From a bacterium (GTDB taxonomy: Bacteria > UBA8248), in the NCBI GenBank assembly GCA_965219955.1, contig OZ244799.1:2592001-2656000 (forward strand): a DNA stretch of 64,000 bases, given 5' to 3'. The notes under the pieces are model-generated. The model was not told where the DNA came from and did no database searches. It worked only from the letters and a program-made list of their open reading frames with translations. Both the position numbers and the translations under genes were made by a program. Positions 16,330-42,413 of this stretch are shown piece by piece. Every line of letters begins with the position of its first letter. Within the stretch, counting starts at the first letter, position 1.

Positions 16330-17739
16330 CTATCGCGTTCCACCGAATCCGGCAGACATATCGCTTCTCTCGACGACACCGCCCATGCCCTCATGCGCTG
16401 GTCCGAAGAACGCGCCCGTAACCTCGCCGGCATCGCCGCCGGTTTGGATGAAAGTATTCTTTCTGACGATGACGCTGTACCTGAGGTCGCCGTCATTCCA
16501 CATCGTTCCTGAATCGATATATTCCAAGTCTGTGAAGTCAATCTGTCCCCTGAGCGTTCCGATGTTGATGTTCAATCGGGTATCTCCGCTCAATGGCTCG
16601 GAACCGGGAGTCATTCCCAGGAGGCGGCCAGACCAGCTTACGCTTCCCGATAGCGACTGGTTATCGGCCAGGTCGTTTTCCGGCTTGGGGCCTCTTGCCC
16701 AGGTCTGAACCAGGCCGTTTCTCGATGCCGCGCCGAATGCGATATCTCCAATATCTCCGCGAACGTGGAACGATATATCGCTCCATGCGCCAAGTCTGTG
16801 CACGTCCGTCTCGCCCGGCTCATAAGCGGCGTAAAGGGCCTGAATCGCGTCATGGTCAACCGGGCCGAGAATGCGGTCTGAATACGAACGTGGAACACGC
16901 GAACGCATAATCGAGTCATGGTAAGTGTCGTAATCCGGGTGTCCTGGTTGTAAACCAAGGGCGTGTAGAAGTTCGTGGGCCAGCAGCAGAATATTGGCCT
17001 CATCAGTAAACTGCCCGAGCCTGTCCTCGTTTATCCATATTCTGGCGCTGTGCATTTTAACGAATGTCACTAGCCCGCCTTCATATTCGGCGGTGGATAA
17101 AGGAACCGTACGCGTTACACCGCGATATACCAGTCTGCTCGGCGGGTTCCATCGTCTGTGCGGCGCGTAGTCGATAAATATCTCTCCTTCGTCAACTTCA
17201 AAGGTGCCGACGCCTGGCGGGGACGGAACGCTGCTGAATCGCAGCCTGTTCTCACGAGGAAGATATGCGTTGATTATCTGTACTGCCTGAACGGCATAAT
17301 CCGTTTGCCTGGGGGTGGCTCCTTCCGCTACGCGGACTACCGGCGGACTTTCCCATGTATGAAGCGACGGTTCGTCTTCGTGGAGCTGGCTGAAGTTTTC
17401 GATGAATTGGCCCACGAATGCGATAACGGCCTCACGGCCCGCTCCATCCCGCACATGACCGGATGAGATAACCGTATCGCCATCCTGTCTCACTGCTCCA
17501 AGTTGGTTCGCCTCCGGCTTGACTCCGGCTCCCACATGCAAGGTATCGCTGTATTCGATTATCGGGGCCTGTCGCGCATGAACAGGAGCTTGCAACGGAA
17601 TAACAGAAGATGGAATGACAGAAGGTGTTCTCGGGATAACCGCACTCCCGCCGCCGCCTCCACCGCAACCGGGCAATATCAACGCGAACGATAGAAGGAC
17701 GGTGAATGCCTTTTGAGCGAAACGATTATTGTTTCTGAT
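16330..17739 (-). CDS. zincin metalloprotease lipoprotein with C-terminal TbpB-like barrel (start codon mutated to ATC, possible pseudogene)
   Basis: LPGC lipobox + poly-Gly, HELLHALGL, FFGPAHEGMGG...AGFGGTR end; signal peptide matches 59453-60850 but ATG reads ATC. Confidence 0.75.
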   Translation of the reverse strand: MRNNNRFAQKAFTVLLSFALILPGCGGGGGGSAVIPRTPSVIPSSVIPLQAPVHARQAPIIEYSDTLHVGAGVKPEANQLGAVRQDGDTVISSGHVRDGAGREAVIAFVGQFIENFSQLHEDEPSLHTWESPPVVRVAEGATPRQTDYAVQAVQIINAYLPRENRLRFSSVPSPPGVGTFEVDEGEIFIDYAPHRRWNPPSRLVYRGVTRTVPLSTAEYEGGLVTFVKMHSARIWINEDRLGQFTDEANILLLAHELLHALGLQPGHPDYDTYHDSIMRSRVPRSYSDRILGPVDHDAIQALYAAYEPGETDVHRLGAWSDISFHVRGDIGDIAFGAASRNGLVQTWARGPKPENDLADNQSLSGSVSWSGRLLGMTPGSEPLSGDTRLNINIGTLRGQIDFTDLEYIDSGTMWNDGDLRYSVIVRKNTFIQTGGDAGEVTGAFFGPAHEGMGGVVERSDMSAGFGGTR

Positions 17740-18895: not shown

Positions 18896-19011
18896 GATAC
18901 AAAAGTCCGTCCTAGTGTGGCCCACCTCTGGCAAGGATTCCCGCGCTTCTCTCCGGGTTGAAGAACATATCCTGGAGGGTTTCGTTACGAGCGCGTCCGG
19001 TCGGGAGGAGA

Positions 19012-19112
19012 AAAGGCCGACACCCCTCAAAGGGTTGGGTTGGCGAAAGATGGGAATTGTTGCGACACAATCCACGAGGTAACGCCGCCAGCCGAGTCGG
19101 GGTGTCGGCCTA
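19012..19112 (-). ncRNA. putative structured RNA/terminator element (copy 1)
   Basis: ggccgacaccc...ggggtgtcggcc closing stem, conserved with 42316-42413. Confidence 0.35.
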
Positions 19113-19132: not shown

Positions 19133-19235
19133 GGGGCTGCCCGCTGCTCCCGTTCCCGACCCGGAGGACTCAAACTCTCAGGCCGGGAACGGTACGCTTT
19201 GCTCCATCACGAGGGAAGCACCAGCGGACAACCCC
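19133..19235 (-). ncRNA. three-way-junction RNA motif, 3' of a lipoprotein gene
   Basis: inverted copy of 25912-26014. Confidence 0.55.
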
Positions 19236-19252
19236 GATTTCGCTCTCTTTTC

Positions 19253-21103
19253 CTAGTTTCTCGCGCCGAACGCGCCGGCCGCGACGCCGTTCCCGAAGCC
19301 GGCGTTGAACTCGCCCACCACGGTGTGCGGCTTTTCATCATTGTCATCACCCGTCGGGCCGTGGAAGGTGGCGCTGAAGCTGCCGTCGTCACTCGGGTGA
19401 CCGCCCTTCGCCGTGCCGGACGCGGTTGCATTGGACTCATCAATGTCACCGCTCAAAACCACTTCCCAGTTGTTCTCCTCACCGCCGGAGAGCTGGAAGT
19501 TGCTGATTGTCCCGGTCAGGGTGTTCAACTGACTCGGCGCGATGGTGCCCGTAGTGTCGGTGTCCGAAACAGGAACCTGACTGAAGGTCGCCGTCAAACT
19601 CACGGCCGCCGTGAAGTGGCCCGAAGTGGCCGCATCGACACTGCCGTCCGTCGTTTTGTAGGTTTCGTGCACGTATACGCCCACGGCGTCGCCGTTGTAT
19701 TCCGCGGTGCCCAGCACACTGGTAAGGCTTGAGGCTGTGGCGGGAACAGAAGAACCCGTGAAGGTCTGGACCGCGTTGTAGGTGACCGCGCCCTCAGAGT
19801 CCGTCGTCTTCATGATCCACACGCCGAAGTGCTTGAAGTCGGCATCCGAAACGTCGGAGGTCGCGCCCTCGGCGGGAGTGAATGCCCAACCCGCGCTCAT
19901 GGCTGTTATCGCGCCTTTATCACTGACCGTGACCGTGCAATCGGCGCTGGCGCTTGCACACCGGTACGTGCCCATCGCGCCGTTGTAGGTGCCCGCGGTT
20001 TCAAACGCCTTAATCGTCTGGTTTCCGTCGGTGCCCGCGTCGCTGTCCAGCTGGAACCTGGCGAAAGTGTGAACAGTGGACGAACCGCTGCCGGCGGCAA
20101 AGGCAGACGACCTGACCAGCTTTAGCGTGTCCCCCGTCGGAACCGTGGTGAGATCGTTGTCACTTGTACCACCGACCGAGAGAGCGGTCAGGTCGTTGTT
20201 AGCGGTGCCGTCGTTATCGGCGTCCTCGCTAAGCTCTAAGTCAACGTTCAGCGCCTGACCCGCCACCTTCGCGAACGCCGTCGCCTTCGGCGCCTCGATG
20301 TCGGTGCCGATGATCACGACTTCTTCTTCCACGTTGCCGTCGTCATCCGCTTCCATCGTGCGCGTGTGCATGCTGAAGGCGTTCTTGCCGCCGCCCAGAT
20401 CCATGGCGTGCATGAACTCGGGGTCGTCGTCACCTGCGCCCGGGACGGTAATCTCGATTTCCGTACCGTCTCGGTCGCGTGAGATGCCGATACCATAGTT
20501 ATTAGTAATCGTTGTAGCATCATCGAAGGGCGCTGCCGCGCTTGTAGCCTCCGCCGCGATGGCCGCTCTCTTCGAGGTGGCCGATTTCGTCACGGCCGCC
20601 GTCGCCGCCGCATCCGCCGCAGCTTGGGCCGCCATGCCCGACGCCGTCCGGGCATTCGCCAGCGCCGCTTCCGCATCGGCCTGCTGGCTTTCCGCTACGT
20701 CAGCGAGAGCCGACGCCGCATCCTGGCTCGACGCGTCTTGCGCCGCATTGCTCGCAGCCTCGGCTGCCGCGGCCGCCTCATTCGCCGCAGCTATCGCCGC
20801 AGCCGTTGCATCGTCATCCGCGTGGTCCAGCCCCGCAGCAGCCATAGCCGCCGCGCGCGCCGCGGTCGCCGCATCAGACGCTCTCTTTTTCGTCGCAGCC
20901 AGCTGTTCCGCCGCGAGATCAGCGGCCGACGTGCACGTTCCGTCTGCGTTATAGCGCCCACCGTCCGCCTCGCACATCTCTTGGGGTGTAGGAGTTGGTG
21001 CCGGCTCTTCTGCTGCAGTCCCACCACCGCCACCGCCGCAGCCCGCCAAACCAAGGGCAGCAACCAAGAGCGCCACCATGGTAAAGCTTCTCCATTTTTG
21101 CAT
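19253..21103 (-). CDS. surface lipoprotein, Ala-rich coiled coil + TbpB-like C-terminal barrel (copy 1)
   Basis: LAGC lipobox, poly-Gly, GEFNAGFGNGVAAGAFGARN end. Confidence 0.85.
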   Translation of the reverse strand: MQKWRSFTMVALLVAALGLAGCGGGGGGTAAEEPAPTPTPQEMCEADGGRYNADGTCTSAADLAAEQLAATKKRASDAATAARAAAMAAAGLDHADDDATAAAIAAANEAAAAAEAASNAAQDASSQDAASALADVAESQQADAEAALANARTASGMAAQAAADAAATAAVTKSATSKRAAIAAEATSAAAPFDDATTITNNYGIGISRDRDGTEIEITVPGAGDDDPEFMHAMDLGGGKNAFSMHTRTMEADDDGNVEEEVVIIGTDIEAPKATAFAKVAGQALNVDLELSEDADNDGTANNDLTALSVGGTSDNDLTTVPTGDTLKLVRSSAFAAGSGSSTVHTFARFQLDSDAGTDGNQTIKAFETAGTYNGAMGTYRCASASADCTVTVSDKGAITAMSAGWAFTPAEGATSDVSDADFKHFGVWIMKTTDSEGAVTYNAVQTFTGSSVPATASSLTSVLGTAEYNGDAVGVYVHETYKTTDGSVDAATSGHFTAAVSLTATFSQVPVSDTDTTGTIAPSQLNTLTGTISNFQLSGGEENNWEVVLSGDIDESNATASGTAKGGHPSDDGSFSATFHGPTGDDNDEKPHTVVGEFNAGFGNGVAAGAFGARN

Positions 21104-21280
21104 TACAATTCCTTCAGATATATTCTTTTTGTGCTAGGAAATGTTATGCTTGTATTCCTTTAATAAACATGCAGTTACAAGCTGTTGCGATATATCGTAT
21201 TTTTGGTCGGCGCGCCTCGTGTATCTGCCGAATCGCTCTCTTACTTGTACGGTTCCGCTAGCGTTGGAAACTTCCTTGCA

Positions 21281-21963: not shown

Positions 21964-22041
21964 CCTACCTTCCTCGGCCCGCCGACGGATGACGCTTAAC
22001 CGCCCATCGTGGCCAGCGCGTTCGGTGCGAGAAAGCAATGA
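21964..22041 (+). pseudogene. 3'-end remnant of a TbpB-barrel lipoprotein gene
   Basis: reads PTFLGPPTDDA*PPIVASAFGARKQ*, like ATFHGPTGDD...AGAFGARN*. Confidence 0.5.
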
Positions 22042-22138: not shown

Positions 22139-22244
22139 GGGGGTTGCTCATTGGTTGCTCCACATCGTCGGGAGCAAATCGTACCGACTCGCGTTACAGA
22201 GTTTGAGTCCTCTCGGCGCGGGAAGGGAGCAATGAGTGACCCCC
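22139..22244 (+). ncRNA. three-way-junction RNA motif (diverged copy)
   Basis: P1 ggggttgctcattg/caatgagtgacccc with compensatory changes; tttgagtc loop. Confidence 0.55.
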
Positions 22245-23824: not shown

Positions 23825-24043
23825 AGACTTTAATCATCTGGACTTCGCCCGAACCTTTACGATAAAGTAAACAATAATGAACTATCAGGGTATACAACGG
23901 GAGGAGGACATAACGAAAGATTCAGCAAAATGAAGCGGAACAGAAAACGAAGGAATACGGGAAGAATCTCAAGATAGAAAAAAGGAATAATCTACATCGC
24001 CCGCTGTGGGCAATCCAACAAGTAATTTTAGGGAGGAATTGTA

Positions 24044-25894
24044 ATGCAAAAATGGAGAAGCTTTACCATGGTGGCGCTCTTGGTTGCTGCCCTTGGTTTG
24101 GCGGGCTGCGGCGGTGGCGGTGGTGGGACTGCAGCAGAAGAGCCGGCACCAACTCCTACACCCCAAGAGATGTGCGAGGCGGACGGTGGGCGCTATAACG
24201 CAGACGGAACGTGCACGTCGGCCGCTGATCTCGCGGCGGAACAGCTGGCTGCGACGAAAAAGAGAGCGTCTGATGCGGCGACCGCGGCGCGCGCGGCGGC
24301 TATGGCTGCTGCGGGGCTGGACCACGCGGATGACGATGCAACGGCTGCGGCGATAGCTGCGGCGAATGAGGCGGCCGCGGCAGCCGAGGCTGCGAGCAAT
24401 GCGGCGCAAGACGCGTCGAGCCAGGATGCGGCGTCGGCTCTCGCTGACGTAGCGGAAAGCCAGCAGGCCGATGCGGAAGCGGCGCTGGCGAATGCCCGGA
24501 CGGCGTCGGGCATGGCGGCCCAAGCTGCGGCGGATGCGGCGGCGACGGCGGCCGTGACGAAATCGGCCACCTCGAAGAGAGCGGCCATCGCGGCGGAGGC
24601 TACAAGCGCGGCAGCGCCCTTCGATGATGCTACAACGATTACTAATAACTATGGTATCGGCATCTCACGCGACCGAGACGGTACGGAAATCGAGATTACC
24701 GTCCCGGGCGCAGGTGACGACGACCCCGAGTTCATGCACGCCATGGATCTGGGCGGCGGCAAGAACGCCTTCAGCATGCACACGCGCACGATGGAAGCGG
24801 ATGACGACGGCAACGTGGAAGAAGAAGTCGTGATCATCGGCACCGACATCGAGGCGCCGAAGGCGACGGCGTTCGCGAAGGTGGCGGGTCAGGCGCTGAA
24901 CGTTGACTTAGAGCTTAGCGAGGACGCCGATAACGACGGCACCGCTAACAACGACCTGACCGCTCTCTCGGTCGGTGGTACAAGTGACAACGATCTCACC
25001 ACGGTTCCGACGGGGGACACGCTAAAGCTGGTCAGGTCGTCTGCCTTTGCCGCCGGCAGCGGTTCGTCCACTGTTCACACTTTCGCCAGGTTCCAGCTGG
25101 ACAGCGACGCGGGCACCGACGGAAACCAGACGATTAAGGCGTTTGAAACCGCGGGCACCTACAACGGCGCGATGGGCACGTACCGGTGTGCAAGCGCCAG
25201 CGCCGATTGCACGGTCACGGTCAGTGATAAAGGCGCGATAACAGCCATGAGCGCGGGTTGGGCATTCACTCCCGCCGAGGGCGCGACCTCCGACGTTTCG
25301 GATGCCGACTTCAAGCACTTCGGCGTGTGGATCATGAAGACGACGGACTCTGAGGGCGCGGTCACCTACAACGCGGTCCAGACCTTCACGGGTTCTTCTG
25401 TTCCCGCCACAGCCTCAAGCCTTACCAGTGTGCTGGGCACCGCGGAATACAACGGCGACGCCGTGGGCGTATACGTGCACGAAACCTACAAAACGACGGA
25501 CGGCAGTGTCGATGCGGCCACTTCGGGCCACTTCACGGCGGCCGTGAGTTTGACGGCGACCTTCAGTCAGGTTCCTGTTTCGGACACCGACACTACGGGC
25601 ACCATCGCGCCGAGTCAGTTGAACACCCTGACCGGGACAATCAGCAACTTCCAGCTCTCCGGCGGTGAGGAGAACAACTGGGAAGTGGTTTTGAGCGGTG
25701 ACATTGATGAGTCCAATGCAACCGCGTCCGGCACGGCGAAGGGCGGTCACCCGAGTGACGACGGCAGCTTCAGCGCCACCTTCCACGGCCCGACGGGTGA
25801 TGACAATGATGAAAAGCCGCACACCGTGGTGGGCGAGTTCAACGCCGGCTTCGGGAACGGCGTCGCGGCCGGCGCGTTCGGCGCGAGAAACTAG
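24044..25894 (+). CDS. surface lipoprotein, Ala-rich coiled coil + TbpB-like barrel (copy 2)
   Basis: identical 616-aa protein to 19253-21103. Confidence 0.85.
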   Translation: MQKWRSFTMVALLVAALGLAGCGGGGGGTAAEEPAPTPTPQEMCEADGGRYNADGTCTSAADLAAEQLAATKKRASDAATAARAAAMAAAGLDHADDDATAAAIAAANEAAAAAEAASNAAQDASSQDAASALADVAESQQADAEAALANARTASGMAAQAAADAAATAAVTKSATSKRAAIAAEATSAAAPFDDATTITNNYGIGISRDRDGTEIEITVPGAGDDDPEFMHAMDLGGGKNAFSMHTRTMEADDDGNVEEEVVIIGTDIEAPKATAFAKVAGQALNVDLELSEDADNDGTANNDLTALSVGGTSDNDLTTVPTGDTLKLVRSSAFAAGSGSSTVHTFARFQLDSDAGTDGNQTIKAFETAGTYNGAMGTYRCASASADCTVTVSDKGAITAMSAGWAFTPAEGATSDVSDADFKHFGVWIMKTTDSEGAVTYNAVQTFTGSSVPATASSLTSVLGTAEYNGDAVGVYVHETYKTTDGSVDAATSGHFTAAVSLTATFSQVPVSDTDTTGTIAPSQLNTLTGTISNFQLSGGEENNWEVVLSGDIDESNATASGTAKGGHPSDDGSFSATFHGPTGDDNDEKPHTVVGEFNAGFGNGVAAGAFGARN

Positions 25895-25911
25895 GAAAAG
25901 AGAGCGAAATC

Positions 25912-26014
25912 GGGGTTGTCCGCTGGTGCTTCCCTCGTGATGGAGCAAAGCGTACCGTTCCCGGCCTGAGAGTTTGAGTCCTCCGGGTCGGGAACGGGAG
26001 CAGCGGGCAGCCCC
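25912..26014 (+). ncRNA. three-way-junction RNA motif
   Basis: P1 ggggttgtccgctg/cagcgggcagcccc, P2 tgcttc/ggagca, long P3 with tttgagtc loop; G-U pairs favour the + strand. Confidence 0.55.
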
Positions 26015-26060
26015 GTTTCCTTGACATGAGACATTGTCCGTCCTCAACAACCCCTCTTCA

Positions 26061-29000
26061 ATGATGAATCCTCTCGACAAACCCTGCCCGGGTATCGCTT
26101 GCTCTTCGCGCCGCGCCCCTGGCGTCGCCATAGCGGTACTTCTCTTTATCGCCACCCTCTCTTGCCTGATGCCGCAAACGGCGTCGGCGCAGGATAGCGC
26201 CACCTACACCTTCACCTTCGAGGGCAACTGGAACCTGCGGAGCGCGCCCAAGGGGGTTCCGTCCAACGCGTATTTCACGGCGATCATCTGGCGCACTCAC
26301 GACAGCGGGATCACCTACTGGAAGCCGGGCGGCATGGCGAGCAGGGGCGTGGAGGTGGTCGCGGAAGACGGCGCCACTCATATTTTCGCCGATGAAACCA
26401 TCGCCGAAGGGGCAAGGGACCACCTGGGAACTGGCGATGTGTTCGGTGTGCCGAGAGGCGGTAATACGAGGGGGAGCACGAAAATCCGTTTCCGGAGCAA
26501 GAAATACCCCCGTCTCACCTTCCTGTCGATGCTCGGCCCCACACCGGACTGGTTCGTGGGCGTCTCGGGCATCTCGCTGCTGGATTCGAAAGGCAACTGG
26601 GTCCGTTCGAAAACCATGAGTCTGTATGCTTACGACGCCGGCACCGAGGAGGGGAGCGAGTATACGCAGAACAACCCCGCTTCGAACCCTCACGTGCCGA
26701 TATTCAGCCTCAAGGGCAAAGGCAAGTTTTCGGGTTCGAGCGTTCCGGTGGCGAGGATCAGACTCGAACTAGACGTTCCGCCGAACCCGGTAAACCTCAA
26801 GGTGGGCGGGAAAACCGCCGCCGTCATCGGCGAAGGCGGCGCACTCGATATCACGGCGGCGCTGAACAGCGTCAACGACTCGGGTGGTGCTCTCGCCATT
26901 CCCATCCGGGTACGAAGCAATGGCTCCACCGCCGGGAGCAATGACTACACGCTGGGCGCGGCTTCTGTCGCCATCGCCGACAACGCACGCACCGGTACGG
27001 TGAAGTTTACGGCGAACGATGACGGCGCCGATGAACCGCCGGAGAAGGTGATTGTGGAACTGGGCAGTTCCTTGCCGAAAGGCGTCACGGCCGGGTCCGG
27101 CAATACGGTGACGATCACCATCGCCGACGACGACGCCACGGTGGTGAGTCTCGCGCGAACCGATTCGGGCGCTATCGCCGAGGGAGGGACGGGCGCGAGG
27201 GAAAACGCCGAATTCACGGTAAGCCTGGGCCGTGCGCTGGCCGCCGGAGAGCGCATAGACGTTCCGCTGGTATTCTCCGGCGCGGGCATCACCTCGGCCG
27301 ACCTCGAGGCACTGGCATTGAAGTCCGGCAGCCACCTCAACACGGGCGTTACGCTTTCCGGGGCCGGGACGCTCACGCCCGTGATCCGCTTTCAGGGCGC
27401 GAACGCCCGGACCGCCACACTGGAACTGACGCCAGCCGACGATGACGAGGTGGAGGGCAACGAGAGCCTGCGTGTCGCCCTCGGCCCGGACGGGAGCGGG
27501 ACGAACGGGTTTGACCGCAGCGCCCTCGGCACGAACGTCGGCGGCGGATCGGACCCTCACAAAACCAGCAATTCCTTCAATCTGATACTTGAATCGGATG
27601 ACGATCCACCACCTTCGACGCCTGTTGTGAGCATAGCGGGCGGCAGCGCCGTCACCGAGGGCGGCACGGCGACCTTCACACTGAGTGCGTCTCCCAAGCC
27701 CCCGGCTGGTATTACCGTGAGGGTGACGGTCACCGACAGCGGCGCGTTCGCCGGGAGCGGTCAGTCGGGTACGAGGACGCTCGCCATGGGAACGGGCGGC
27801 ACGGCCGTCCTCACGGTCACGACGCTCAACGACGAAATCGACGAGGAGAACGGCTCGATCACGGCGACGGTCGCTGCGGGCGATGGGTATTCACCATCAA
27901 ATACCAAAGGCACGGCGACGGTCGCGGTGAGCGACGACGACTTGCCGCTGCCTGTGGCGTCGTTCTCCTCCTCCTCGCAAAGCGCTGGGGAGAACGCGGG
28001 AACGCGCAACGTGAGGGTGAACCTGTCCCGGACCCCGGCTTCGGGCTTCACGCTGAACTATTCGGTAAAGGGTACGGCAGTCTCGGGCGTGGACTACACG
28101 GCGCTTCCGGGCAGCGTTTCGGTGTCATCGGGTGCGGCGAGTGTGGATATTCCGGTGAAAATCACCGACGACGGAGCGGACGAGGGTAGCGAGACGGTTT
28201 TGCTGACACTCACCGCGGGCGAGGGCTACGAGGTGGGGAGCACGAACGTCCACACACTGACCATCGAAGACAATGACGATCCACCACCTTCGACGCCTGT
28301 TGTGAGCATAGCGGGCGGCAGCGCCGTCACCGAGGGCGGCACGGCGACCTTCACACTGAGTGCGTCTCCCAAGCCCCCGGCTGGTATTACCGTGAGGGTG
28401 ACGGTCACCGACAGCGGCGCGTTCGCCGGGAGCGGTCAGTCGGGTACGAGGACGCTCGCCATGGGAACGGGCGGCACGGCCGTCCTCACGGTCACGACGC
28501 TCAACGACGAAATCGACGAGGAGAACGGCTCGATCACGGCGACGGTCGCTGCGGGCGATGGGTATTCACCATCAAATACCAAAGGCACGGCGACGGTCGC
28601 GGTGAGCGACGACGACTTGCCGCTGCCTGTGGCGTCGTTCTCCTCCTCCTCGCAAAGCGCTGGGGAGAACGCGGGAACGCGCAACGTGAGGGTGAACCTG
28701 TCCCGGACCCCGGCTTCGGGCTTCACGCTGAACTATTCGGTAAAGGGTACGGCAGTCTCGGGCGTGGACTACACGGCGCTTCCGGGCAGCGTTTCGGTGT
28801 CATCGGGTGCGGCGAGTGTGGATATTCCGGTGAAAATCACCGACGACGGAACGGACGAGGGTAGCGAGACGGTTTTGCTGACACTCACCGCGGGCGAGGG
28901 CTACGAGGTGGGGAGCACGAACGTCCACACACTGACCATCGAAGACAATGACGATCCACCACCTTCGACGCCTGTTGTGAGCATAGCGGGCGGCAGCGCC

Positions 29001-32000
29001 GTCACCGAGGGCGGCACGGCGACCTTCACACTGAGTGCGTCTCCCAAGCCCCCGGCTGGTATTACCGTGAGGGTGACGGTCACCGACAGCGGCGCGTTCG
29101 CCGGGAGCGGTCAGTCGGGTACGAGGACGCTCGCCATGGGAACGGGCGGCACGGCCGTCCTCACGGTCACGACGCTCAACGACGAAATCGACGAGGAGAA
29201 CGGCTCGATCACGGCGACGGTCGCTGCGGGCGATGGGTATTCACCATCAAATACCAAAGGCACGGCGACGGTCGCGGTGAGCGACGACGACTTGCCGCTG
29301 CCTGTGGCGTCGTTCTCCTCCTCCTCGCAAAGCGCTGGGGAGAACGCGGGAACGCGCAACGTGAGGGTGAACCTGTCCCGGACCCCGGCTTCGGGCTTCA
29401 CGCTGAACTATTCGGTAAAGGGTACGGCAGTCTCGGGCGTGGACTACACGGCGCTTCCGGGCAGCGTTTCGGTGTCATCGGGTGCGGCGAGTGTGGATAT
29501 TCCGGTGAAAATCACCGACGACGGAGCGGACGAGGGTAGCGAGACGGTTTTGCTGACACTCACCGCGGGCGAGGGCTACGAGGTGGGGAGCACGAACGTC
29601 CACACACTGACCATCGAAGACAATGACGATCCACCACCTTCGACGCCTGTTGTGAGCATAGCGGGCGGCAGCGCCGTCACCGAGGGCGGCACGGCGACCT
29701 TCACACTGAGTGCGTCTCCCAAGCCCCCGGCTGGTATTACCGTGAGGGTGACGGTCACCGACAGCGGCGCGTTCGCCGGGAGCGGTCAGTCGGGTACGAG
29801 GACGCTCGCCATGGGAACGGGCGGCACGGCCGTCCTCACGGTCACGACGCTCAACGACGAAATCGACGAGGAGAACGGCTCGATCACGGCGACGGTCGCT
29901 GCGGGCGATGGGTATTCACCATCAAATACCAAAGGCACGGCGACGGTCGCGGTGAGCGACGACGACTTGCCGCTGCCTGTGGCGTCGTTCTCCTCCTCCT
30001 CGGTGGCTCTCCAGATAGGGACGCTGCCGGAGGGAGGCCTGTCACTCGATGAGGGGGATTCGGCAAGCTACACATTGGTGCTGACGGCGCAGCCCACGGA
30101 CCCGGTGAGAGTGACACCCGAAAGTGCGCACCCGGAGGCGGTGTCGGTGCGTCCGGCGTGGCTGGAATTCACTCCGGACAACTGGGACGCGCCGCAAAAT
30201 GTGACCCTGACTGCTGTGGTCGATGGAGACGCCCAAGACGAGAGCGTGGTTGTCTCTCACGCAGTATCGAGCGCAGACGCGCGCTACGGGGGGCTCGACG
30301 GCGGGACGGTGCGGGTGAGTGTCTCGGACGCTAGTGGACCGCAGTTCGTGTCGACGCATTTCGCGTTCACGATAGCGGAGAACACGGTGGGTCCGACGCC
30401 CGTACGCGGTGCCGGGGGTAGCCCCGGAGCGGTGCGCGCGACTGGGAACGGCGTCAGGTACACCATGGCCGGCGGCGGCGAACTTTTTCTGGTCGATGCG
30501 GAGACGGGTGCAGTGACCTATACGGGCTCGGGCGAACCGACGGGGCGCCATGAACTGACCATTCTTGCCAGCGACGCGCTGGGGCGCGTCGCCAGGACAC
30601 GGGTAAGCGTACGGGTTATAGAGGATCCGTCGTCTGTGGCCGCAGGACTGCTGCGTATTGCGCGCACCGGGGCGGACCACGTGCTGGAGGGCATCGCCTC
30701 GCGACTTGAAGCAGTGCGAAGACTGGGTATCGAGGTTCGCCTGGCAGGACAAGACATTCTGGCCCTTGAGGGGAATGATGGAACGTCAAGCCTTGCGTCT
30801 GCGATCAACTCTGCGCACGGGCGTCGAGGTGAAAGGATGGAGGCACGATCGGTCGGACGTGCCCTGTCGGAAGAGGAATTGCTGAGGGGGGTGGCGTTCG
30901 CGCTGAGCGGAGATATGACGCCGGGCGGCGCGTCCTGGTCGGCCTGGGGCAGGGGGACCGGTTCCCGATTCGACGAACAGGAGGGAGAGCGCTCCATGCA
31001 GGGCGAGGTGCTGACGGGCATCGTCGGCCTCGACAGGAGAGAGGGACGGTGGCTGACGGGCCTGGTGGTTTCACGCAGCGCAGGTGAGGGTGAGTGGAGC
31101 GGACCAGGCAACGAGCGATGGCAGATGGAGACCGACCTCACGATCCTCGCGCCCTATACGGCGTTCAGTCTCTCGGACCCGGTCACGCTCTGGGGGACGG
31201 TGGGCTACGGGCGGGGTTCGCTCGGGGTGAAGCGCCCCGGAGGCGGTTCGAGCGAGACCGACGTAGATACGACCTTGTTGGCGGCGGGCGTCCGGGGGGA
31301 GTTGATCGAGGCGCCGCCCGGGGGCGGGTTCGGCCTCGCCGTTAAATCGGACGTGCTGTGGCTGCGGGCGAATTCGGACGAGGAGAACGGTCTCTCCGCC
31401 ACGTCGCAGGACGCGACCAGGTCCCGGCTCGCTCTGGTAGCCTCGTGGCGTGGTAGATTCGAGGGTTATGGTGAACTGGGAATGAAGCTGGAGTTGGGTG
31501 GGCGTCATGAAGGAGACGACGCGGAGAGCGGTTTCGGGGTGGAAGCGGGCGTTGCCGTAAACTGGAGCGACCAGAGGCGCGGAATCGGTATTCAGGTCGA
31601 AGGACGGGTTCTGACGCTTCACGACGCCTTCGATACGAGTGAGGAAGGCCTCTCGGTTTCTCTTTCCTGGATGCCGGGCGGGACGTCGCCGCTGGGTCCC
31701 TCGATCGCGTTCCGTCTCGACAGGGGAGCGCCTTCTCCGGGTGGGCTCGATCGCCTGGCGGCGTCCGGTACCGGAACGGCCTCGGACGAAGCGACTGGCC
31801 GGGCTTACTCTTTCGAGGCGGCCTGGGGTTTCCCTGCCTTCGGTGGGCGGTTCGTGGGTAGCCCCTATATCCGTCACGGTTTCTCCTCTGCGGCGAACGA
31901 CTATACCTTCGGCTGGCGCCTTGCCCCGGCCGCGCCCGAGGCTTTCGACCTCACCCTCGGGGTTCAAGCCACGATGAGCGAGAACGGAGACGAGAATCCC

Positions 32001-32039
32001 GATCACGGCGTCGGGCTCGAGTTGAGGAAGACGTGGTGA
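26061..32039 (+). CDS. autotransporter adhesin: Spondin_N + Calx-beta repeats + cadherin-like + C-terminal beta-barrel
   Basis: signal peptide; SMLGPTPDWFVG and YDAGTE (Spondin_N); DDxxDExxE Calx-beta motifs; ends in LELRKTW; start codon uncertain. Confidence 0.85.
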   Translation: MMNPLDKPCPGIACSSRRAPGVAIAVLLFIATLSCLMPQTASAQDSATYTFTFEGNWNLRSAPKGVPSNAYFTAIIWRTHDSGITYWKPGGMASRGVEVVAEDGATHIFADETIAEGARDHLGTGDVFGVPRGGNTRGSTKIRFRSKKYPRLTFLSMLGPTPDWFVGVSGISLLDSKGNWVRSKTMSLYAYDAGTEEGSEYTQNNPASNPHVPIFSLKGKGKFSGSSVPVARIRLELDVPPNPVNLKVGGKTAAVIGEGGALDITAALNSVNDSGGALAIPIRVRSNGSTAGSNDYTLGAASVAIADNARTGTVKFTANDDGADEPPEKVIVELGSSLPKGVTAGSGNTVTITIADDDATVVSLARTDSGAIAEGGTGARENAEFTVSLGRALAAGERIDVPLVFSGAGITSADLEALALKSGSHLNTGVTLSGAGTLTPVIRFQGANARTATLELTPADDDEVEGNESLRVALGPDGSGTNGFDRSALGTNVGGGSDPHKTSNSFNLILESDDDPPPSTPVVSIAGGSAVTEGGTATFTLSASPKPPAGITVRVTVTDSGAFAGSGQSGTRTLAMGTGGTAVLTVTTLNDEIDEENGSITATVAAGDGYSPSNTKGTATVAVSDDDLPLPVASFSSSSQSAGENAGTRNVRVNLSRTPASGFTLNYSVKGTAVSGVDYTALPGSVSVSSGAASVDIPVKITDDGADEGSETVLLTLTAGEGYEVGSTNVHTLTIEDNDDPPPSTPVVSIAGGSAVTEGGTATFTLSASPKPPAGITVRVTVTDSGAFAGSGQSGTRTLAMGTGGTAVLTVTTLNDEIDEENGSITATVAAGDGYSPSNTKGTATVAVSDDDLPLPVASFSSSSQSAGENAGTRNVRVNLSRTPASGFTLNYSVKGTAVSGVDYTALPGSVSVSSGAASVDIPVKITDDGTDEGSETVLLTLTAGEGYEVGSTNVHTLTIEDNDDPPPSTPVVSIAGGSAVTEGGTATFTLSASPKPPAGITVRVTVTDSGAFAGSGQSGTRTLAMGTGGTAVLTVTTLNDEIDEENGSITATVAAGDGYSPSNTKGTATVAVSDDDLPLPVASFSSSSQSAGENAGTRNVRVNLSRTPASGFTLNYSVKGTAVSGVDYTALPGSVSVSSGAASVDIPVKITDDGADEGSETVLLTLTAGEGYEVGSTNVHTLTIEDNDDPPPSTPVVSIAGGSAVTEGGTATFTLSASPKPPAGITVRVTVTDSGAFAGSGQSGTRTLAMGTGGTAVLTVTTLNDEIDEENGSITATVAAGDGYSPSNTKGTATVAVSDDDLPLPVASFSSSSVALQIGTLPEGGLSLDEGDSASYTLVLTAQPTDPVRVTPESAHPEAVSVRPAWLEFTPDNWDAPQNVTLTAVVDGDAQDESVVVSHAVSSADARYGGLDGGTVRVSVSDASGPQFVSTHFAFTIAENTVGPTPVRGAGGSPGAVRATGNGVRYTMAGGGELFLVDAETGAVTYTGSGEPTGRHELTILASDALGRVARTRVSVRVIEDPSSVAAGLLRIARTGADHVLEGIASRLEAVRRLGIEVRLAGQDILALEGNDGTSSLASAINSAHGRRGERMEARSVGRALSEEELLRGVAFALSGDMTPGGASWSAWGRGTGSRFDEQEGERSMQGEVLTGIVGLDRREGRWLTGLVVSRSAGEGEWSGPGNERWQMETDLTILAPYTAFSLSDPVTLWGTVGYGRGSLGVKRPGGGSSETDVDTTLLAAGVRGELIEAPPGGGFGLAVKSDVLWLRANSDEENGLSATSQDATRSRLALVASWRGRFEGYGELGMKLELGGRHEGDDAESGFGVEAGVAVNWSDQRRGIGIQVEGRVLTLHDAFDTSEEGLSVSLSWMPGGTSPLGPSIAFRLDRGAPSPGGLDRLAASGTGTASDEATGRAYSFEAAWGFPAFGGRFVGSPYIRHGFSSAANDYTFGWRLAPAAPEAFDLTLGVQATMSENGDENPDHGVGLELRKTW
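27598..30002 (+). repeat. 675-bp near-identical tandem repeat, about 3.6 units (two Calx-beta domains each)
   Basis: units start at 27598, 28273, 28948, 29623; only one A/T amino-acid difference seen. Confidence 0.95.
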
Positions 32040-40636: not shown

Positions 40637-41980
40637 GAGAGTGTCCGAAGTCTTGTGTAAGTAAGGGTCGAGGGTTCACACTTCACCAGGAGGAGGACCT
40701 TTGATGACGAGACTGAGACCTGAGCTATTGGACGAGTTGCTGTCCGGCTACGAGAAGCCGGAAGACCTGTTGGGCGAGGACGGGCTGTTCAAGCAGCTCA
40801 AGGAGGCTCTTGTGGAGCGCGCGCTGGGCGCGGAGTTGAGCGAGCACCTCGGCTACGAGAAGGGAGACCCAGCCGGACGAGGTAGTGGCAACAGCCGCAA
40901 CGGGCATTCCGGCAAGACGGTTCTGAGCGATGATGGCGAGTTGGACCTGGCGGTTCCCCGGGACCGCAACGGGACGTTCGAGCCGGCGATCGTGCCCAAG
41001 GGGGAGCGGCGCCTCGAGGGTTTCGACGAGCGCATCGTGTCGCTGTACGCGCGCGGGATGAGCGTGCGCGAGATCCGGGGCCACCTCGAGGAGTTGTACG
41101 GGGTATCGGTATCGCCGGACCTGATCAGCCGGGTGACCGACGCCGTGCTAGAGGAGGTGCGGGAGTGGCAGAACCGGCCCCTGGACCCTGTTTATCCGGT
41201 CGTGTTCTTCGACGCGCTGCGGGTGAAGATCCGCGACGAGGGCCTGGTTCGGAACAAGGCGGTCTACCTCGCCCTGGCGATTACCTCCGAGGGCGACAAG
41301 GAGGTGCTGGGGCTTTGGATCGAGCAGACCGAGGGGGCGAAGTTCTGGCTCAAGGTGATGAACGAGCTCCAGGCCCGGGGCCTGCAGGACATTCTGGTCG
41401 CGGTGGTGGACGGGCTCGCAGGCTTTCCCGACGCCATCGGCACGGTATTCCCGCGCACCGCGGTCCAGACCTGCATCGTCCATCTGATACGCAATTCGAT
41501 GTCGTTCGTCGCCTGGAAGGACCGCCGGAAGGTCATGCCCGATCTCAAGGCGGTCTACCGGGCCGAGACGCTCGAAGCCGCGGCGGCCAGGCTCGATGAG
41601 TTCGAAGCCCGCTGGGGGGAGCGCTACCCGGCGGTGGCTCCCGCCTGGCGTCGCGCCTGGGAGCATGTGGCGCCGATGTTCGCCTTCCCGCCGGCCATCC
41701 GGAAGATGATCTATACGACCAACGCCCTGGAGAGCCTGCATCGGTCGTTGCGCAAGATCATCAAGACCCGGGGAAGCTTTCCCAGCGACGAGGCGGCGAC
41801 GAAGTTGCTGTTCCTGGCGATACGCAACGCCGGAGTCCGTTGGCGCCGCCCAGTTGACTGGACCGCCGCGAAGGGGCAATTTGCCATTCTGTTCGAGGAT
41901 CGCTTTCCTGGCTCAGCTAGCTGAGCCAGGAAAGCCCAAAGACCCGAGACCGTGGCTTACACAGATAATCGGACATACCC
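40637..41980 (+). mobile_element. IS256 family element, copy A (1344 bp)
   Basis: imperfect IRs; 8-bp TSD tgacaaaa. Confidence 0.95.
40701..41924 (+). CDS. IS256 family transposase
   Basis: VFFDALRVKIR, VVDGLAGF, QTCIVHLIRNS, YTTNALES. Confidence 0.95.
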   Translation: MMTRLRPELLDELLSGYEKPEDLLGEDGLFKQLKEALVERALGAELSEHLGYEKGDPAGRGSGNSRNGHSGKTVLSDDGELDLAVPRDRNGTFEPAIVPKGERRLEGFDERIVSLYARGMSVREIRGHLEELYGVSVSPDLISRVTDAVLEEVREWQNRPLDPVYPVVFFDALRVKIRDEGLVRNKAVYLALAITSEGDKEVLGLWIEQTEGAKFWLKVMNELQARGLQDILVAVVDGLAGFPDAIGTVFPRTAVQTCIVHLIRNSMSFVAWKDRRKVMPDLKAVYRAETLEAAAARLDEFEARWGERYPAVAPAWRRAWEHVAPMFAFPPAIRKMIYTTNALESLHRSLRKIIKTRGSFPSDEAATKLLFLAIRNAGVRWRRPVDWTAAKGQFAILFEDRFPGSAS

Positions 41981-42189
41981 TGACAAAAAAGTTGAGGCCC
42001 CATGGATTACGGTACAAGGCTTTGTAGATGGATACACAAGCTATTTAATTGTACGCACTTCCCGGTTCGGTTGCGGGGTCGTTTTACGTCAACAAGCTGA
42101 CCGCGTCCGGAGGAGGCGTTGTCTTCATCGGGGCGTTCGGGGCGCACAGATAACAGGGCAGTACACCTATAAGGAGAGCAAATTAATAA

Positions 42190-42294
42190 AGGGGATTGCC
42201 CGTTGGTTGCTTCCCTCGTGCTAGAGCAAACTGTATCGTTCCTTGCTATGAGTTTGAGTCCTCGATCAGGTAGCGGGAACAATGGGCAGCCCCT
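42190..42294 (+). ncRNA. three-way-junction RNA motif (diverged copy)
   Basis: P1 gggg(a)ttgcccgttg/caatgggcagcccc; tttgagtc loop; follows the GAFGAHR* stop. Confidence 0.55.
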
Positions 42295-42315
42295 GCTTGC
42301 GTTTCAGGCAAGCTG

Positions 42316-42413
42316 GCCGACACCCTGCCGCAGCTGGCACTTTACCTTGTGGATTGTGTCGCAGCAATTCCCGTCTTTCGCCAGCCCTGTAAGGGGTGTC
42401 GGCCTTTTTTTTT
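42316..42413 (+). ncRNA. putative structured RNA/terminator element (copy 2)
   Basis: ggccgacaccc/gggtgtcggcc stem with T9 tail. Confidence 0.35.

What the first reader, a model, noticed from the sequence alone, without database searches (positions are those of the whole stretch)
25912..26014. Unrecognised covarying three-way-junction RNA tied to the 3' ends of barrel-lipoprotein genes
Seen: four copies (19133-19235 minus, 22139-22244, 25912-26014, 42190-42294), of which three are sequence-divergent. All keep a ~14-bp P1 with compensatory changes (ttgtccgctg/cagcgggcag; ttgctcattg/caatgagtga; ttgcccgttg/caatgggcag). They also keep a tgct/agca P2, a GUA/GAR loop-E-like junction and a long P3 capped by invariant gag-tttgagtc-ctc. 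G-U pairs fix the sense strand. Each copy follows the stop codon of an (A/G)FGA-ending lipoprotein gene or remnant, and there is no T-tract. It matches no riboswitch or ribozyme I recognise. Inference: an mRNA processing, stability or localisation element, a new ribozyme, or a signal for gene duplication, since the 1981-bp duplication ends exactly at P1.
Basis: partly seen in the sequence, partly recalled or inferred. Interest (0 to 1): 0.85.

Follow-up and report, generated by a model that had tools for sequence, protein, structure and literature searches.

The report
New 3'UTR RNA on surface-lipoprotein genes
A previously undescribed, strongly conserved Y-shaped RNA sits just after the genes for a family of surface lipoproteins in uncultured sponge-associated bacteria, and its two exposed loops match, in antisense, the ribosome-binding region of those same genes, so it probably tunes how much of these surface proteins is made.

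Summary
All four window copies exist, two of them identical inside an exact 1981-nt inverted duplication. They belong to a family of 12 copies in this genome and 112 matches in 18 genomes. The three-way-junction fold is backed by strong covariation: 24 of 35 pairs change on both sides and 96.2% of cells pair. Abundant G-U pairs fix the strand. Rfam has no match.

The element is tied to one gene family, TbpB/NHBA/fHbp-like (Slam-type) surface lipoproteins. It lies a median 77 nt after their stop codon. In 51 of 112 cases it lies about 75-130 nt before a terminator-like hairpin with a T-rich tail. It is therefore an internal 3'UTR element, not the terminator.

New lead: both conserved loops are antisense to the family's conserved 5'UTR/ribosome-binding module. 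The cap UGAGUCCUC matches GAGGACUCA, and two different P2-loop variants each match 8 nt of one invariant 5'UTR.

My best reading (about 0.5) is a bipartite anti-RBS element acting in cis or in trans. No RNA data exist, and the complementarity was found post hoc.

A conserved orphan tandem locus also carries the fold without a lipoprotein gene. I class this as a new RNA family and a new variant of 3'UTR antisense control.

The parts
25912..26014 (+). Focal copy of the three-way-junction RNA (main type). P1 is 25912-25925 with 26001-26014. P2 hairpin is 25927-25947. J2/3, containing GUA, is 25948-25954. P3 is 25955-25997 with the cap GAGTTTGAGTCCTC at 25970-25983. J3/1 (GAG) is 25998-26000.
   Evidence: Sequence; fold with z -6.99; CM hit of 113.8 bits; pair counts.
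19133..19235 (-). Identical copy on the minus strand. It forms the end of the inverted 1981-nt duplication.
22139..22244 (+). Divergent copy of the 'T-type'. P1 is GGGGGUUGCUCAUUG, and the P2 loop is ACAUCGUCG instead of CCCUCGUGAU.
   Evidence: 99.9 bits.
42190..42294 (+). Divergent main-type copy.
   Evidence: 113.4 bits.
24044..25894 (+). Surface-lipoprotein gene of 616 aa, with a lipobox (LAGC) and a C-terminus GAFGARN. The C-terminal 260 aa are predicted to form a TbpB/NHBA/fHbp-like handle plus beta-barrel.
   Evidence: ORF; AF2 pLDDT 86.7; Foldseek top hits NHBA, HpuA, TbpB, LbpB and fHbp.
19253..21103 (-). Identical second copy of the 616-aa lipoprotein gene.
22018..22041 (+). Short remnant of a lipoprotein C-terminus (..AFGARKQ*), 97 nt upstream of copy 22139.
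   Evidence: No longer remnant was found by tblastn.
42130..42153 (+). Remnant C-terminus (..GAFGAHR*) of a lipoprotein gene broken by an insertion sequence.
40701..41924 (+). IS256-family (Transposase_mut) gene inserted in the lipoprotein gene upstream of copy 42190.
   Evidence: Pfam PF00872, E 5.6e-129; flanking homology to paralogues.
19007..19111 (-). 'Type I' downstream module: a long hairpin closed by GGCCGACACCCC/GGGGUGUCGGCC and followed by UUUUCUCC. It is the likely intrinsic terminator of the lipoprotein transcript.
   Evidence: Fold; motif census found 38 of 112 copies with this module.
42315..42413 (+). The same type I module, followed by U9.

Best explanation
The element is a new structured RNA family of about 105 nt, transcribed as part of the 3'UTR of operons encoding TbpB-like (Slam-type) surface lipoproteins (SLPs). 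A 15-bp clamp helix (P1) and a conserved junction hold two hairpins, P2 and P3. Their apical loops are antisense to the conserved translation-initiation module of the SLP family. The P3 cap (UGAGUCCUC) pairs with the Shine-Dalgarno region GAGGACUCA. The P2 loop pairs with the segment just 5' of it (UAUCACGA or CGACGAUG, depending on the P2 variant). I propose that the junction works as a bipartite 'kissing' anti-RBS. It would bind the 5'UTR of its own mRNA (5'-3' UTR pairing through the cap) and/or, in trans, the 5'UTRs of the Slam-linked SLP gene and other paralogues. The result would be lower translation and altered mRNA stability.

Shown here: the structure, the strand, the covariation, the link to SLP genes, the position between stop codon and terminator, and the sequence complementarity.

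Inferred: transcription, the pairing itself, its direction (repression) and whether it acts in cis or in trans.
For: Structure:
- 112 matches (102 distinct) from 18 genomes.
- 96.2% of cells pair, against 88.7+-0.3% in shuffles (0 of 500 reach it).
- 24 of 35 pairs change on both sides.
- The covariation score is 0.349, against 0.04-0.09 when partners are slid.
- P1 and P2 are recovered from a structure-blind MAFFT alignment of 43 non-redundant copies, with 14 of 22 pairs compensatory.
- Strand: 99-135 bits forward against 21-27 bits reverse, with many G-U pairs.

Context:
- 76 of 112 copies have a same-strand ORF of at least 150 aa ending in G-x-F-G-A within 600 nt upstream. For 73 it is within 250 nt, with a median stop-to-P1 distance of 77 nt.
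- Five more copies have broken remnants.
- 19 of 26 copies on other contigs (17 on metagenome contigs, 9 on species-genome contigs) show the same context.
- A terminator-like module follows about 75-130 nt downstream in 51 of 112 copies, 38 of type I and 13 of type II.
- RNA and SLP family co-occur. Five of the six genus genomes without the RNA also lack the protein.

Antisense:
- The RBS module GGAGGACUCAC-NNN-AUG occurs 2-18 times in 15 of the 17 RNA-positive genomes of the genus (once or twice, partly with a mismatch, in G006 and G004) and 0-1 times in the six RNA-negative ones. Reversed-pattern controls give 0-2 per genome, except 8 in G015.
- Pairing the coordinates by hand, 30 of 32 SLP-linked elements in three complete genomes (G012 14/14, G002 10/10, G020 6/8) have the module 1.75-3.8 kb upstream on the same strand.
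- The invariant 5'UTR of the Slam-adjacent SLP gene (..CCUUAUCACGACGAUGAGGAGGACUCACUC.AUG) has the core AUCACGACGAUG in the SLP-gene rows of 13 of the 14 genomes in which that locus was read (G004 differs by one base) and a close variant in G044. It holds an 8-nt complement of the main P2 loop, an 8-nt complement of the different T-type P2 loop, and a 9-nt complement of the cap. Shuffled loops reach these lengths in 86, 47 and 10 of 20000 trials.
- Tandem leader hairpins carrying AUCACGAGG-NNN-GAGGACUCAAC (10 + 10 nt complements) stand upstream of one SLP locus in 11 of 23 genomes, with a control of 0.
- There is one cis compensatory case. The RBS variant GACUCG is paired with the cap variant CGAGUC in G002, while three G012 loci have G.U at that position.
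- A secreted sCache gene beside Slam has 17 bp of complementarity (RBS plus AUG) to the P3 arm and cap in 3 genomes.
Against: - No RNA data of any kind exist, so transcription, processing and pairing are all unobserved.
- The complementarity was found post hoc. All SLP 5'UTRs are paralogous, so they count as few independent events.
- A 9-nt match that includes an SD/anti-SD core is partly trivial. In duplex-energy terms the cap against ordinary gene-A 5'UTRs (-16.7 kcal/mol) sits only at about the 5th percentile of 3000 random start regions.
- The two window copies at 19133 and 25912 belong to a gene whose RBS (GGAGGAAUUGUAAUG) lacks the GACUCA extension.
- The main-type P2 loop has no complement in the 5'UTR of its own operon, so a purely cis model fails for P2.
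- G044 has the RBS module without the RNA, so the module does not depend on the element.
- The orphan B-type target site is only partly conserved.
- In the distant genome G042 only a 7-nt loop complement was seen, and it lies away from the RBS.
Confidence: 0.5

Rival explanations
1. The element is a structured 3'UTR element that works without antisense pairing. It could be a docking site for an RNA-binding protein or RNase, or a 3' stabiliser or processing signal that sets the half-life or 3' end of SLP mRNAs. The loop complementarity to the RBS would then be incidental or a relic of its origin.
For: Its position lies between the stop codon and the terminator. The loop and junction nucleotides are invariant, which is typical of protein recognition. 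Copy B of the orphan locus is almost invariant across 10 genomes, although no SLP gene is adjacent in most of them. The window's own 616-aa gene lacks the extended RBS match.
Against: Three separate loops (cap, main P2, T-type P2) each carry 8-9 nt complements within one 30-nt conserved 5'UTR, which shuffled loops rarely reach. The RBS module and the element co-occur almost one to one. A mere stabiliser would not need conserved loops.
Confidence: 0.25
2. The element is a selfish or modular intergenic repeat (REP/BIME- or MITE-like) that hitch-hikes with the SLP genes. P1 would be terminal inverted repeats.
For: The genome is rich in other intergenic repeat families, and the flanks are mosaic. 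Similarity between loci often starts and stops at the element's edges. The duplication ends at P1. The copies are multiple and dispersed.
Against: The copies are not scattered: 76 of 112, plus remnants, sit behind one gene family in one orientation. No precise empty site was seen. The paralogue without the element has a wholly different 3'UTR from the stop codon on. Pairing is maintained by compensatory and G-U changes with a strong strand bias. There were no matches in viral contigs.
Confidence: 0.08
3. The element is a DNA-level signal. It could be a homology anchor or recombination site for gene conversion or duplication among SLP paralogues. Alternatively, it could be a protein-binding site shared in inverted orientation by the 5' and 3' ends of the operons.
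For: An exact 1981-nt inverted duplication ends at P1. In other samples the same repeat is a single collapsed unitig at about twice the depth and differs from the window at 26 positions, so the two copies are homogenised within strains. The motifs at the 5' and 3' ends are reverse complements of each other.
Against: Compensatory changes and G-U (not A-C) pairs are not expected for a double-stranded DNA site. In the element the two motifs stand in the order P2 loop then cap, about 35 nt apart and each in a hairpin loop. That is not the inverted repeat of the contiguous 5' module. The element's sequence does not read like the attC consensus as I recall it (my own reading).
Confidence: 0.07
4. 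The element is a self-cleaving ribozyme or a ligand-binding (riboswitch-like) aptamer.
For: It has a compact three-way junction with invariant junction nucleotides, and a terminator lies downstream.
Against: No Rfam ribozyme or riboswitch matches even at E<=10. The junction strands do not fit the hammerhead core as I recall it (G at the would-be cleavage position; AnnGUA instead of CUGAnGA). The element lies after the genes, not before them. The sequence between the element and the terminator comes in unrelated types I and II, so there is no conserved expression platform.
Confidence: 0.04

Closest known systems
icaR mRNA 5'-3' UTR interaction in Staphylococcus aureus (PMC3868564; search listing and start of abstract seen, details recalled)
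   Same: A 3'UTR segment containing an anti-SD-like sequence is complementary to the Shine-Dalgarno region of the same mRNA. The proposed effect is on translation and decay.
   Different: Here the antisense bases sit in two loops of a covarying three-way junction rather than in a linear UCCCC motif. The element is shared by a whole paralogous gene family, and one of its loops fits other family members' 5'UTRs better than its own. Nothing has been tested experimentally.
mRNA-mRNA regulation by a 3'UTR (Listeria hly 3'UTR acting on the prsA2 5'UTR, PMC8722363; B. subtilis hbs 5'/3'-UTR pairing, PMC5737220; listings and abstract starts seen)
   Same: The 3'UTR of one messenger pairs with the 5'UTR of another (or of its own) to couple the expression of functionally linked secreted or surface proteins.
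   Different: Those are single gene pairs with a positive or protective effect. Here there would be a family-wide network, and its sign is unknown.
Two-site kissing antisense RNAs such as OxyS-fhlA (recalled, not looked up) and 3'UTR-derived sRNAs
   Same: Two hairpin loops of one RNA would contact two nearby sites around an RBS. The orphan tandem locus looks like free-standing sRNA genes with the same fold.
   Different: The scaffold, the sequence and the taxon differ. No Hfq/ProQ link or processing site is known here.
REP/BIME, ERIC and Correia-type intergenic repeats
   Same: These are multi-copy, about 100 nt long, fold into stem-loops, are often found in 3'UTRs, and have mosaic flanks.
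   Different: This element is strictly associated with one gene family and one orientation. It has a branched fold with conserved loops and compensatory evolution. No transposition signature was seen.
Slam-dependent surface lipoproteins (TbpB, LbpB, fHbp, NHBA, HpuA; PMC5449769, listing and abstract start seen)
   Same: The host genes share the predicted handle plus 8-stranded barrel and the ..GAFGA(K/R).. C-terminus. One SlipAM/DUF560 gene lies beside one family member.
   Different: The host is an uncultured lineage outside the Proteobacteria-centred literature. There are about 10 loci per genome, most of them far from Slam, and none of my literature searches returned an RNA element described for such genes (one search was made for citations).

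Membership tests
Any Rfam 15 family | Covariance-model score at or above the family's gathering threshold | tested here: not met
   The only window hit is a group II intron at 44029-44246. Around the element, the best matches at E<=10 are chance-level (15 bits against a threshold of 100). The orphan locus also has no meaningful hit.
Intrinsic (Rho-independent) terminator | G+C-rich hairpin immediately followed by a U-tract | tested here: not met
   P1 is followed by UGUUUC, CUCCUUC or similar, not by a U-tract. Separate terminator-like hairpins with T-rich tails (2-9 T in the next 10 nt) lie about 75-130 nt further on in 51 of 112 copies.
MITE / REP-like mobile repeat | Terminal inverted repeats with target-site duplication, insertion in diverse intergenic sites, and precise empty sites | tested here: not met
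   P1 could pass for terminal inverted repeats. However, 76 of 112 copies plus remnants follow one gene family. The one comparable paralogue without the element differs over the entire 3'UTR. Target-site duplications were not searched for systematically.
Integron attC site | 5'-RYYYAAC...GTTRRRY-3' core sites in that order, arrays beside an integron integrase | tested here: not met
   By my own reading of the sequence, the element reads GTTG...CAAC, the opposite order, on either strand (consensus recalled). The copies are dispersed, not in an array. No integrase search was made.
Hammerhead ribozyme | Three-way junction with core CUGANGA / GAAA / cleavage site H (consensus recalled) | tested here: not met
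   By my own reading of the alignment, the junction strands are G, A(N)NGUA and GAR, and the single-nucleotide strand is an invariant G. There is no Rfam hammerhead hit.
tRNA-like structure / tmRNA | Cloverleaf-type arms with a canonical T-loop, detectable by ARAGORN | tested here: not met
   ARAGORN found 0 genes in the window. The T-loop-like UUUGAGU is off register with the cap stem, and the B-type variant (UUGGGUC) loses it.
Riboswitch | Aptamer upstream of the regulated genes, with a conserved expression platform | tested here: not met
   The element lies downstream of the genes. The spacer to the terminator is of unrelated types. There is no Rfam match.
3'UTR anti-SD / 5'-3' UTR pairing element (icaR-like, a functional class) | Located in the 3'UTR of the regulated mRNA | tested here: met
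   It lies between the stop codon (median 77 nt) and a terminator module. Transcription itself is not shown.
3'UTR anti-SD / 5'-3' UTR pairing element (icaR-like, a functional class) | Sequence complementary to the SD region of the target mRNA | tested here: met
   The cap UGAGUCCUC pairs with GAGGACUCA at the first gene of 30 of 32 SLP-linked operons in three complete genomes. It is not met for the window's own 616-aa gene.
3'UTR anti-SD / 5'-3' UTR pairing element (icaR-like, a functional class) | Demonstrated pairing and an effect on translation or decay | not testable with these tools
   No RNA runs are available. RNAcofold cannot model loop-loop contacts.
Slam-dependent surface lipoprotein (host gene) | Lipobox, a C-terminal handle plus 8-stranded beta-barrel like TbpB/fHbp, and a Slam (PF04575) gene in the genome | tested here: met
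   There is a lipobox LAGC. The AF2 model has pLDDT 86.7 and Foldseek top hits NHBA, HpuA, TbpB, LbpB and fHbp (E 3e-5 to 5e-3, TM only 0.3-0.5). One PF04575 gene scores 94.8 bits. Pfam TbpB_B_D itself does not match by sequence.

The most novel reading that the evidence does not exclude
The junction RNAs form an RNA-level cross-regulation network for a multigene family of surface lipoproteins. Each dispersed SLP operon would carry, in its 3'UTR, a two-loop antisense module that silences the ribosome-binding region of the Slam-linked 'master' SLP gene and of other paralogues. The 5'UTR of one locus, with 2-4 tandem decoy-like hairpins, and a free-standing tandem sRNA locus would buffer the system. 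The outcome would be hierarchical or one-at-a-time display of surface-protein variants in a host-associated symbiont, without DNA rearrangement.
Probability: 0.2. Interest if true: 0.85.

Novelty: new variant of a known kind. Interest (0 to 1): 0.68.

Why it matters
If the reading is right, this would be a case in which a whole family of bacterial surface-protein genes carries a dedicated structured antisense module in its 3'UTRs. That would extend 3'UTR-5'UTR control, known from a few single genes in Firmicutes, to a family-wide network in an uncultured, host-associated lineage.

It gives a concrete and cheaply testable RNA-RNA pair of about 105 nt against about 40 nt, with natural loop variants.

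It adds a well-supported new family for RNA databases.

It flags Slam-type surface lipoproteins, which are important host-interaction and vaccine antigens elsewhere, as subject to post-transcriptional control.

Even if the antisense idea fails, the covariation makes this a solid new structured RNA of unknown function.

Tried and rejected
- RNA evidence: the run search listed 12 runs, and no holder is on record as RNA, so 'no RNA holder listed'.
- Read laying could use only DNA contigs. It showed repeat boundaries and strain differences but nothing on expression.
- Rfam at gathering and at permissive thresholds gave nothing relevant.
- ARAGORN gave nothing.
- Protein identity by sequence failed. 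Pfam gave no hit and the PDB sequence search gave none. The ESM Atlas gave only a weak TbpB_B_D lead, score 0.88. The fold search settled the question.
- The simple terminator scan misses the long-range type I hairpin. My own T-tract/RNAfold finder was noisy, picking up internal T runs, so I replaced it with a motif census. Copies without a type I or II motif are unclassified, not shown to lack terminators.
- MITE test: the paralogue without the element (G000 3001106, minus strand) shares no 3'UTR sequence with element-bearing relatives, so there is no empty site.
- A possible P1 extension into the flanks (AAAG/UUUC) is not kept in the orphan type, by inspection. I dropped it.
- A kissing contact between the P2 loop and the P3 cap within one molecule could not be supported by the variants, by inspection.
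- Coding potential of the element is rejected, because copies differ by 1-nt indels.
- RNAcofold of the 5'UTR with the element gives ddG of about 0, because nested-structure algorithms cannot form loop-loop contacts. This is uninformative.
- In G042, the distant genome, the SLP 5'UTR shows only a 7-nt complement of the cap loop, about 50 nt upstream of the start. This is too weak to count.
- Literature searches found no description of this motif. Supplements were not consulted.
- Earlier findings of this scan: nothing on this element.
- Viral contigs: 0 matches.

Full report
**Observation**

They align with 76% mean column identity. Copies 19133(-) and 25912(+) are identical because they end an exact 1981-nt inverted duplication, 24034-26014 <-> 21113-19133.

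On the + sense all three distinct sequences fold into the same Y shape. The energies are far below shuffled controls (z -7.0, -5.8, -2.7), and the reverse complements fold worse.

For the focal copy the helices are:
- P1: 25912-25925 with 26001-26014
- P2: 25927-25947
- P3: 25955-25997, with the cap at 25970-25983

**Family and structure**

The 14-nt cap occurs exactly 10 times in the 4.28-Mb genome. In that search, with one mismatch allowed (12 matches), the reversed-pattern control gave 1+1.

A covariance model built from these ten copies also finds a diverged tandem pair at G000 3669895-3670188. It scores the sense strand at 99-135 bits and the antisense strand at 21-27 bits.

After fetching all hits from relatives, 112 matches (102 distinct) from 18 genomes were aligned. 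The pair counts on this alignment are:
- 96.2% of cells pair, against 88.7+-0.3% in shuffles (0 of 500 reach it).
- 24 of 35 pairs change on both sides.
- The covariation score is 0.349, against 0.04-0.09 when the 3' partners are slid.
- All five helices contain compensatory pairs.

That alignment was fitted to the model. As a check, a structure-blind MAFFT/RNAalifold run on 43 copies below 90% identity recovers P1 and P2, with 14 of 22 pairs compensatory. P3 is lost there only because of indels. Frequent G-U pairs, for example 44, 37, 62, 46 and 45 sequences at five positions, would be A-C mismatches on the other strand. So the sense is that of the upstream gene.

**Distribution**

Within the class held by the genome collection (51 genomes), the RNA occurs in this genome, in 16 of 22 other genomes of the genus, and in one genome (G042) of another family. 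It was not found in the other 27.

Record titles call these organisms 'MAG: bacterium' or 'MAG: Nitrospinota bacterium', and DNA runs holding the window are labelled 'sponge metagenome'. A pattern scan found 15 metagenome stretches and no viral contig.

**Host genes**

- 76 of 112 copies have, on the same strand within 600 nt upstream, an ORF of at least 150 aa ending in a G-x-F-G-A motif. For 73 it lies within 250 nt, with a median stop-to-P1 distance of 77 nt and a range of 7-206 nt.
- Four more copies have IS-broken or frameshifted remnants, as does the tandem locus of G004.
- Window copy 22139 keeps only ..AFGARKQ*.
- 19 of 26 copies on other contigs (17 on metagenome contigs, 9 on species-genome contigs) show the same context.
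- The distant G042 copy lies 284 nt behind such a gene.

Sequence methods do not name the protein. An AlphaFold model of the last 260 residues (34-sequence alignment, pLDDT 86.7) hits NHBA, HpuA, TbpB, LbpB, fHbp and hemophilin first. The E-values are 3e-5 to 5e-3 and the TM scores are modest, 0.3-0.5. The genome has one Slam gene (PF04575, 94.8 bits).

RNA and protein family co-occur. Five of the six genus genomes without the RNA gave no protein match. G010 gave one weak protein match and no RNA.

**Not the terminator**

Downstream of the element come two unrelated modules.
- Type I is a long hairpin closed by GGCCGACACCCC/GGGGUGUCGGCC plus a U-tract.
- Type II is a classical A-tract/stem/T-tract terminator.

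By motif, 38 and 13 of 112 copies carry them, ending about 75-130 nt after P1. The remaining copies are unclassified. So the element is an internal 3'UTR module.

Copy 25912 is an exception. It is followed after 20-47 nt by the start of a 2001-aa Calx-beta/cadherin gene.

**Known families excluded**

None of the following fits; the membership table gives the details.
- Rfam
- ARAGORN
- The hammerhead core
- attC
- Riboswitch architecture
- MITE behaviour: the one SLP paralogue without the element has a wholly different 3'UTR from the stop codon on, so there is no empty site

**The new lead**

I searched for the cap motif in looser form and then for its complement. This showed that GAGGACUCA is the Shine-Dalgarno region of SLP genes. 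Of 14 RBS-positioned occurrences in G000, 8 start lipoproteins with the family's or a similar lipobox signal peptide, and one starts a secreted sCache protein beside Slam.

Across the class, the module GGAGGACUCAC-NNN-AUG occurs as follows:
- 2-18 times in 15 of the 17 RNA-positive genomes of the genus, and once or twice (partly with a mismatch) in the other two, G006 and G004
- 0-1 times in the six RNA-negative genomes of the genus
- Reversed controls give 0-2 per genome, except 8 in G015

I paired the coordinates by hand. In three complete genomes, 30 of 32 SLP-linked elements have the module 1.75-3.8 kb upstream on the same strand (G012 14/14, G002 10/10, G020 6/8). In G000 this holds for six loci, but not for the duplicated 616-aa gene of the window.

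The second loop fits too. The 5'UTR of the Slam-adjacent SLP gene..CCUUAUCACGACGAUGAGGAGGACUCACUC.AUG, has the core AUCACGACGAUG in the SLP-gene rows of 13 of the 14 genomes in which that locus was read. G004 differs by one base, and G044 carries a close variant. This 5'UTR contains three complements:
- UAUCACGA, the complement of the main-type P2 loop
- CGACGAUG, the complement of the different T-type P2 loop, which is also the P2 loop of window copy 22139
- GAGGACUCA, the complement of the cap

Shuffled loops reach these match lengths in 86, 47 and 10 of 20000 trials.

One SLP locus carries 2-4 tandem leader hairpins with AUCACGAGG-NNN-GAGGACUCAAC in 11 of 23 genomes, with a control of 0. 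In 10 of those 11 genomes a T-type element lies 1.9-4.4 kb downstream.

One cis compensatory change was seen. In G002 the RBS variant GACUCG goes with the cap variant CGAGUC. Three G012 loci have G.U at that position.

The sCache gene's RBS and AUG can form 17 bp with the P3 arm and cap in G000, G011 and G016. The match is weaker in other RNA-positive genomes and absent in four RNA-negative ones.

**Mechanism**

I therefore read the junction as a scaffold that presents two antisense loops to the SLP translation-initiation region.

The cap can reach the RBS of its own operon, which would be cis 5'-3' UTR pairing. The P2 loops fit the Slam-adjacent gene and the leader hairpins better than they fit their own operon, which points to action in trans. 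Repression is the simplest expectation because the SD would be covered, but the sign is inferred.

The order of the motifs argues against a DNA-site explanation. In the element the P2 loop comes first and the cap about 35 nt later. This is not the inverted repeat of the contiguous 5' module.

**Orphan locus**

A 1.9-kb ORF-poor intergenic region holds one to three tandem copies in most RNA-positive genomes. Copy B is almost invariant across 10 genomes while its flanks diverge. In G004 and G006 the array follows an SLP-like gene or its remnant.

The variant cap of copy B (GUUGGGUCCUC) and its P2 loop match a bipartite site at the RBS of a small conserved membrane ORF (G000 3083951). That site is only partly conserved.

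These copies look like free-standing sRNA versions of the fold.

**Caveats**

- No expression data exist.
- CM E-values are rough by design.
- The genomes are related and the SLP 5'UTRs are paralogous, so the counts overstate independence.
- The complementarity was noticed after looking, and the targets for the shuffle test were chosen by me.
- An SD/anti-SD core is easy to find by chance. The cap's duplex energy with ordinary gene-A leaders is only about the 5th percentile of random start regions.
- G044 has the RBS module without the RNA.

**Verdict**

This is a real RNA family absent from Rfam. None of my literature searches found it described. It has a specific genomic role at the 3' end of Slam-type surface-lipoprotein operons.

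The best-supported mechanism is bipartite antisense control of the family's ribosome-binding region (about 0.5). The main rival is a protein-binding or stability element (about 0.25).

Noticed in passing
window 19133-21113 and 24034-26014: This is an exact 1981-nt inverted duplication (SLP gene plus element) flanking a 2.9-kb segment. In two other samples the repeat is one collapsed unitig at about twice the flanking depth and differs from the window at 26 positions. The two copies therefore stay identical within a strain (concerted evolution), and inversion of the middle segment is conceivable.
   Followed up: partly
window 19007-19111 (-) and 42315-42413 (+); 38 of 112 loci: This is a second repeat family ('type I module'): a conserved hairpin of about 100 nt closed by GGCCGACACCCC/GGGGUGUCGGCC and followed by a U-tract. 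It has a conserved inner part (GGAUUGUGUCGCAGCA). It is probably a structured terminator and possibly an RNA motif in its own right.
   Followed up: partly
G000:C1:3669895-3670188 (outside the window): This is the orphan tandem pair of the same fold in a 1.9-kb ORF-poor region. Copy B is nearly invariant in 10 genomes. In five of them the upstream region carries a TTGACA-like promoter box and a further conserved stretch of unknown nature, with no Rfam hit.
   Followed up: partly
G000:C1:1775889-1776176 (outside the window): Three tandem leader hairpins of about 100-165 nt sit upstream of an SLP operon. Each carries an RBS-like GAGGACUCAAC in its 5' arm or loop and CACGAGG/CCUCGUG arms. The arrangement is conserved in 11 of 23 genus genomes.
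   Followed up: partly
G000:C1:2997575-3002942 (outside the window): This is a conserved cluster of a secreted sCache_2 protein, Slam (PF04575) and an SLP gene. A small upstream ORF repeats the same 5'UTR/RBS module 233 nt earlier. This SLP gene is the family member in G000 found without the 3' element.
   Followed up: partly
window 44029-44246 (+): A group II intron (RF02005, 127 bits) lies 1.7 kb downstream of copy 42190. No link to the element was seen.
   Followed up: no
window 26034-32039 (+): A 2001-aa protein with Spondin_N, three Calx-beta domains and a cadherin domain starts 20-47 nt after copy 25912, with no terminator between. It may therefore be co-transcribed with the lipoprotein gene.
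   Followed up: no
window 16330-17682 (-): This is another lipobox protein (450 aa, ending ..SAGFGGTR), downstream of copy 19133 on the same strand. It has no Pfam hit.
   Followed up: no
flanks of many loci (e.g. L049, L077, L096): The genus is rich in other short intergenic repeats. These include REP-like palindromes that begin with GTAGGGACAGG..CCTGTCC, and C-rich blocks (CCCCCCCTACCCCCCCTTGACAGGGG).
   Followed up: no
G000:C1:3083977 onward; L218-L222: A small conserved ORF (VDYLRPVFASLYALFQPVV.., with a hydrophobic tail in four genomes) has an RBS carrying complements of the orphan B-type loops.
   Followed up: partly
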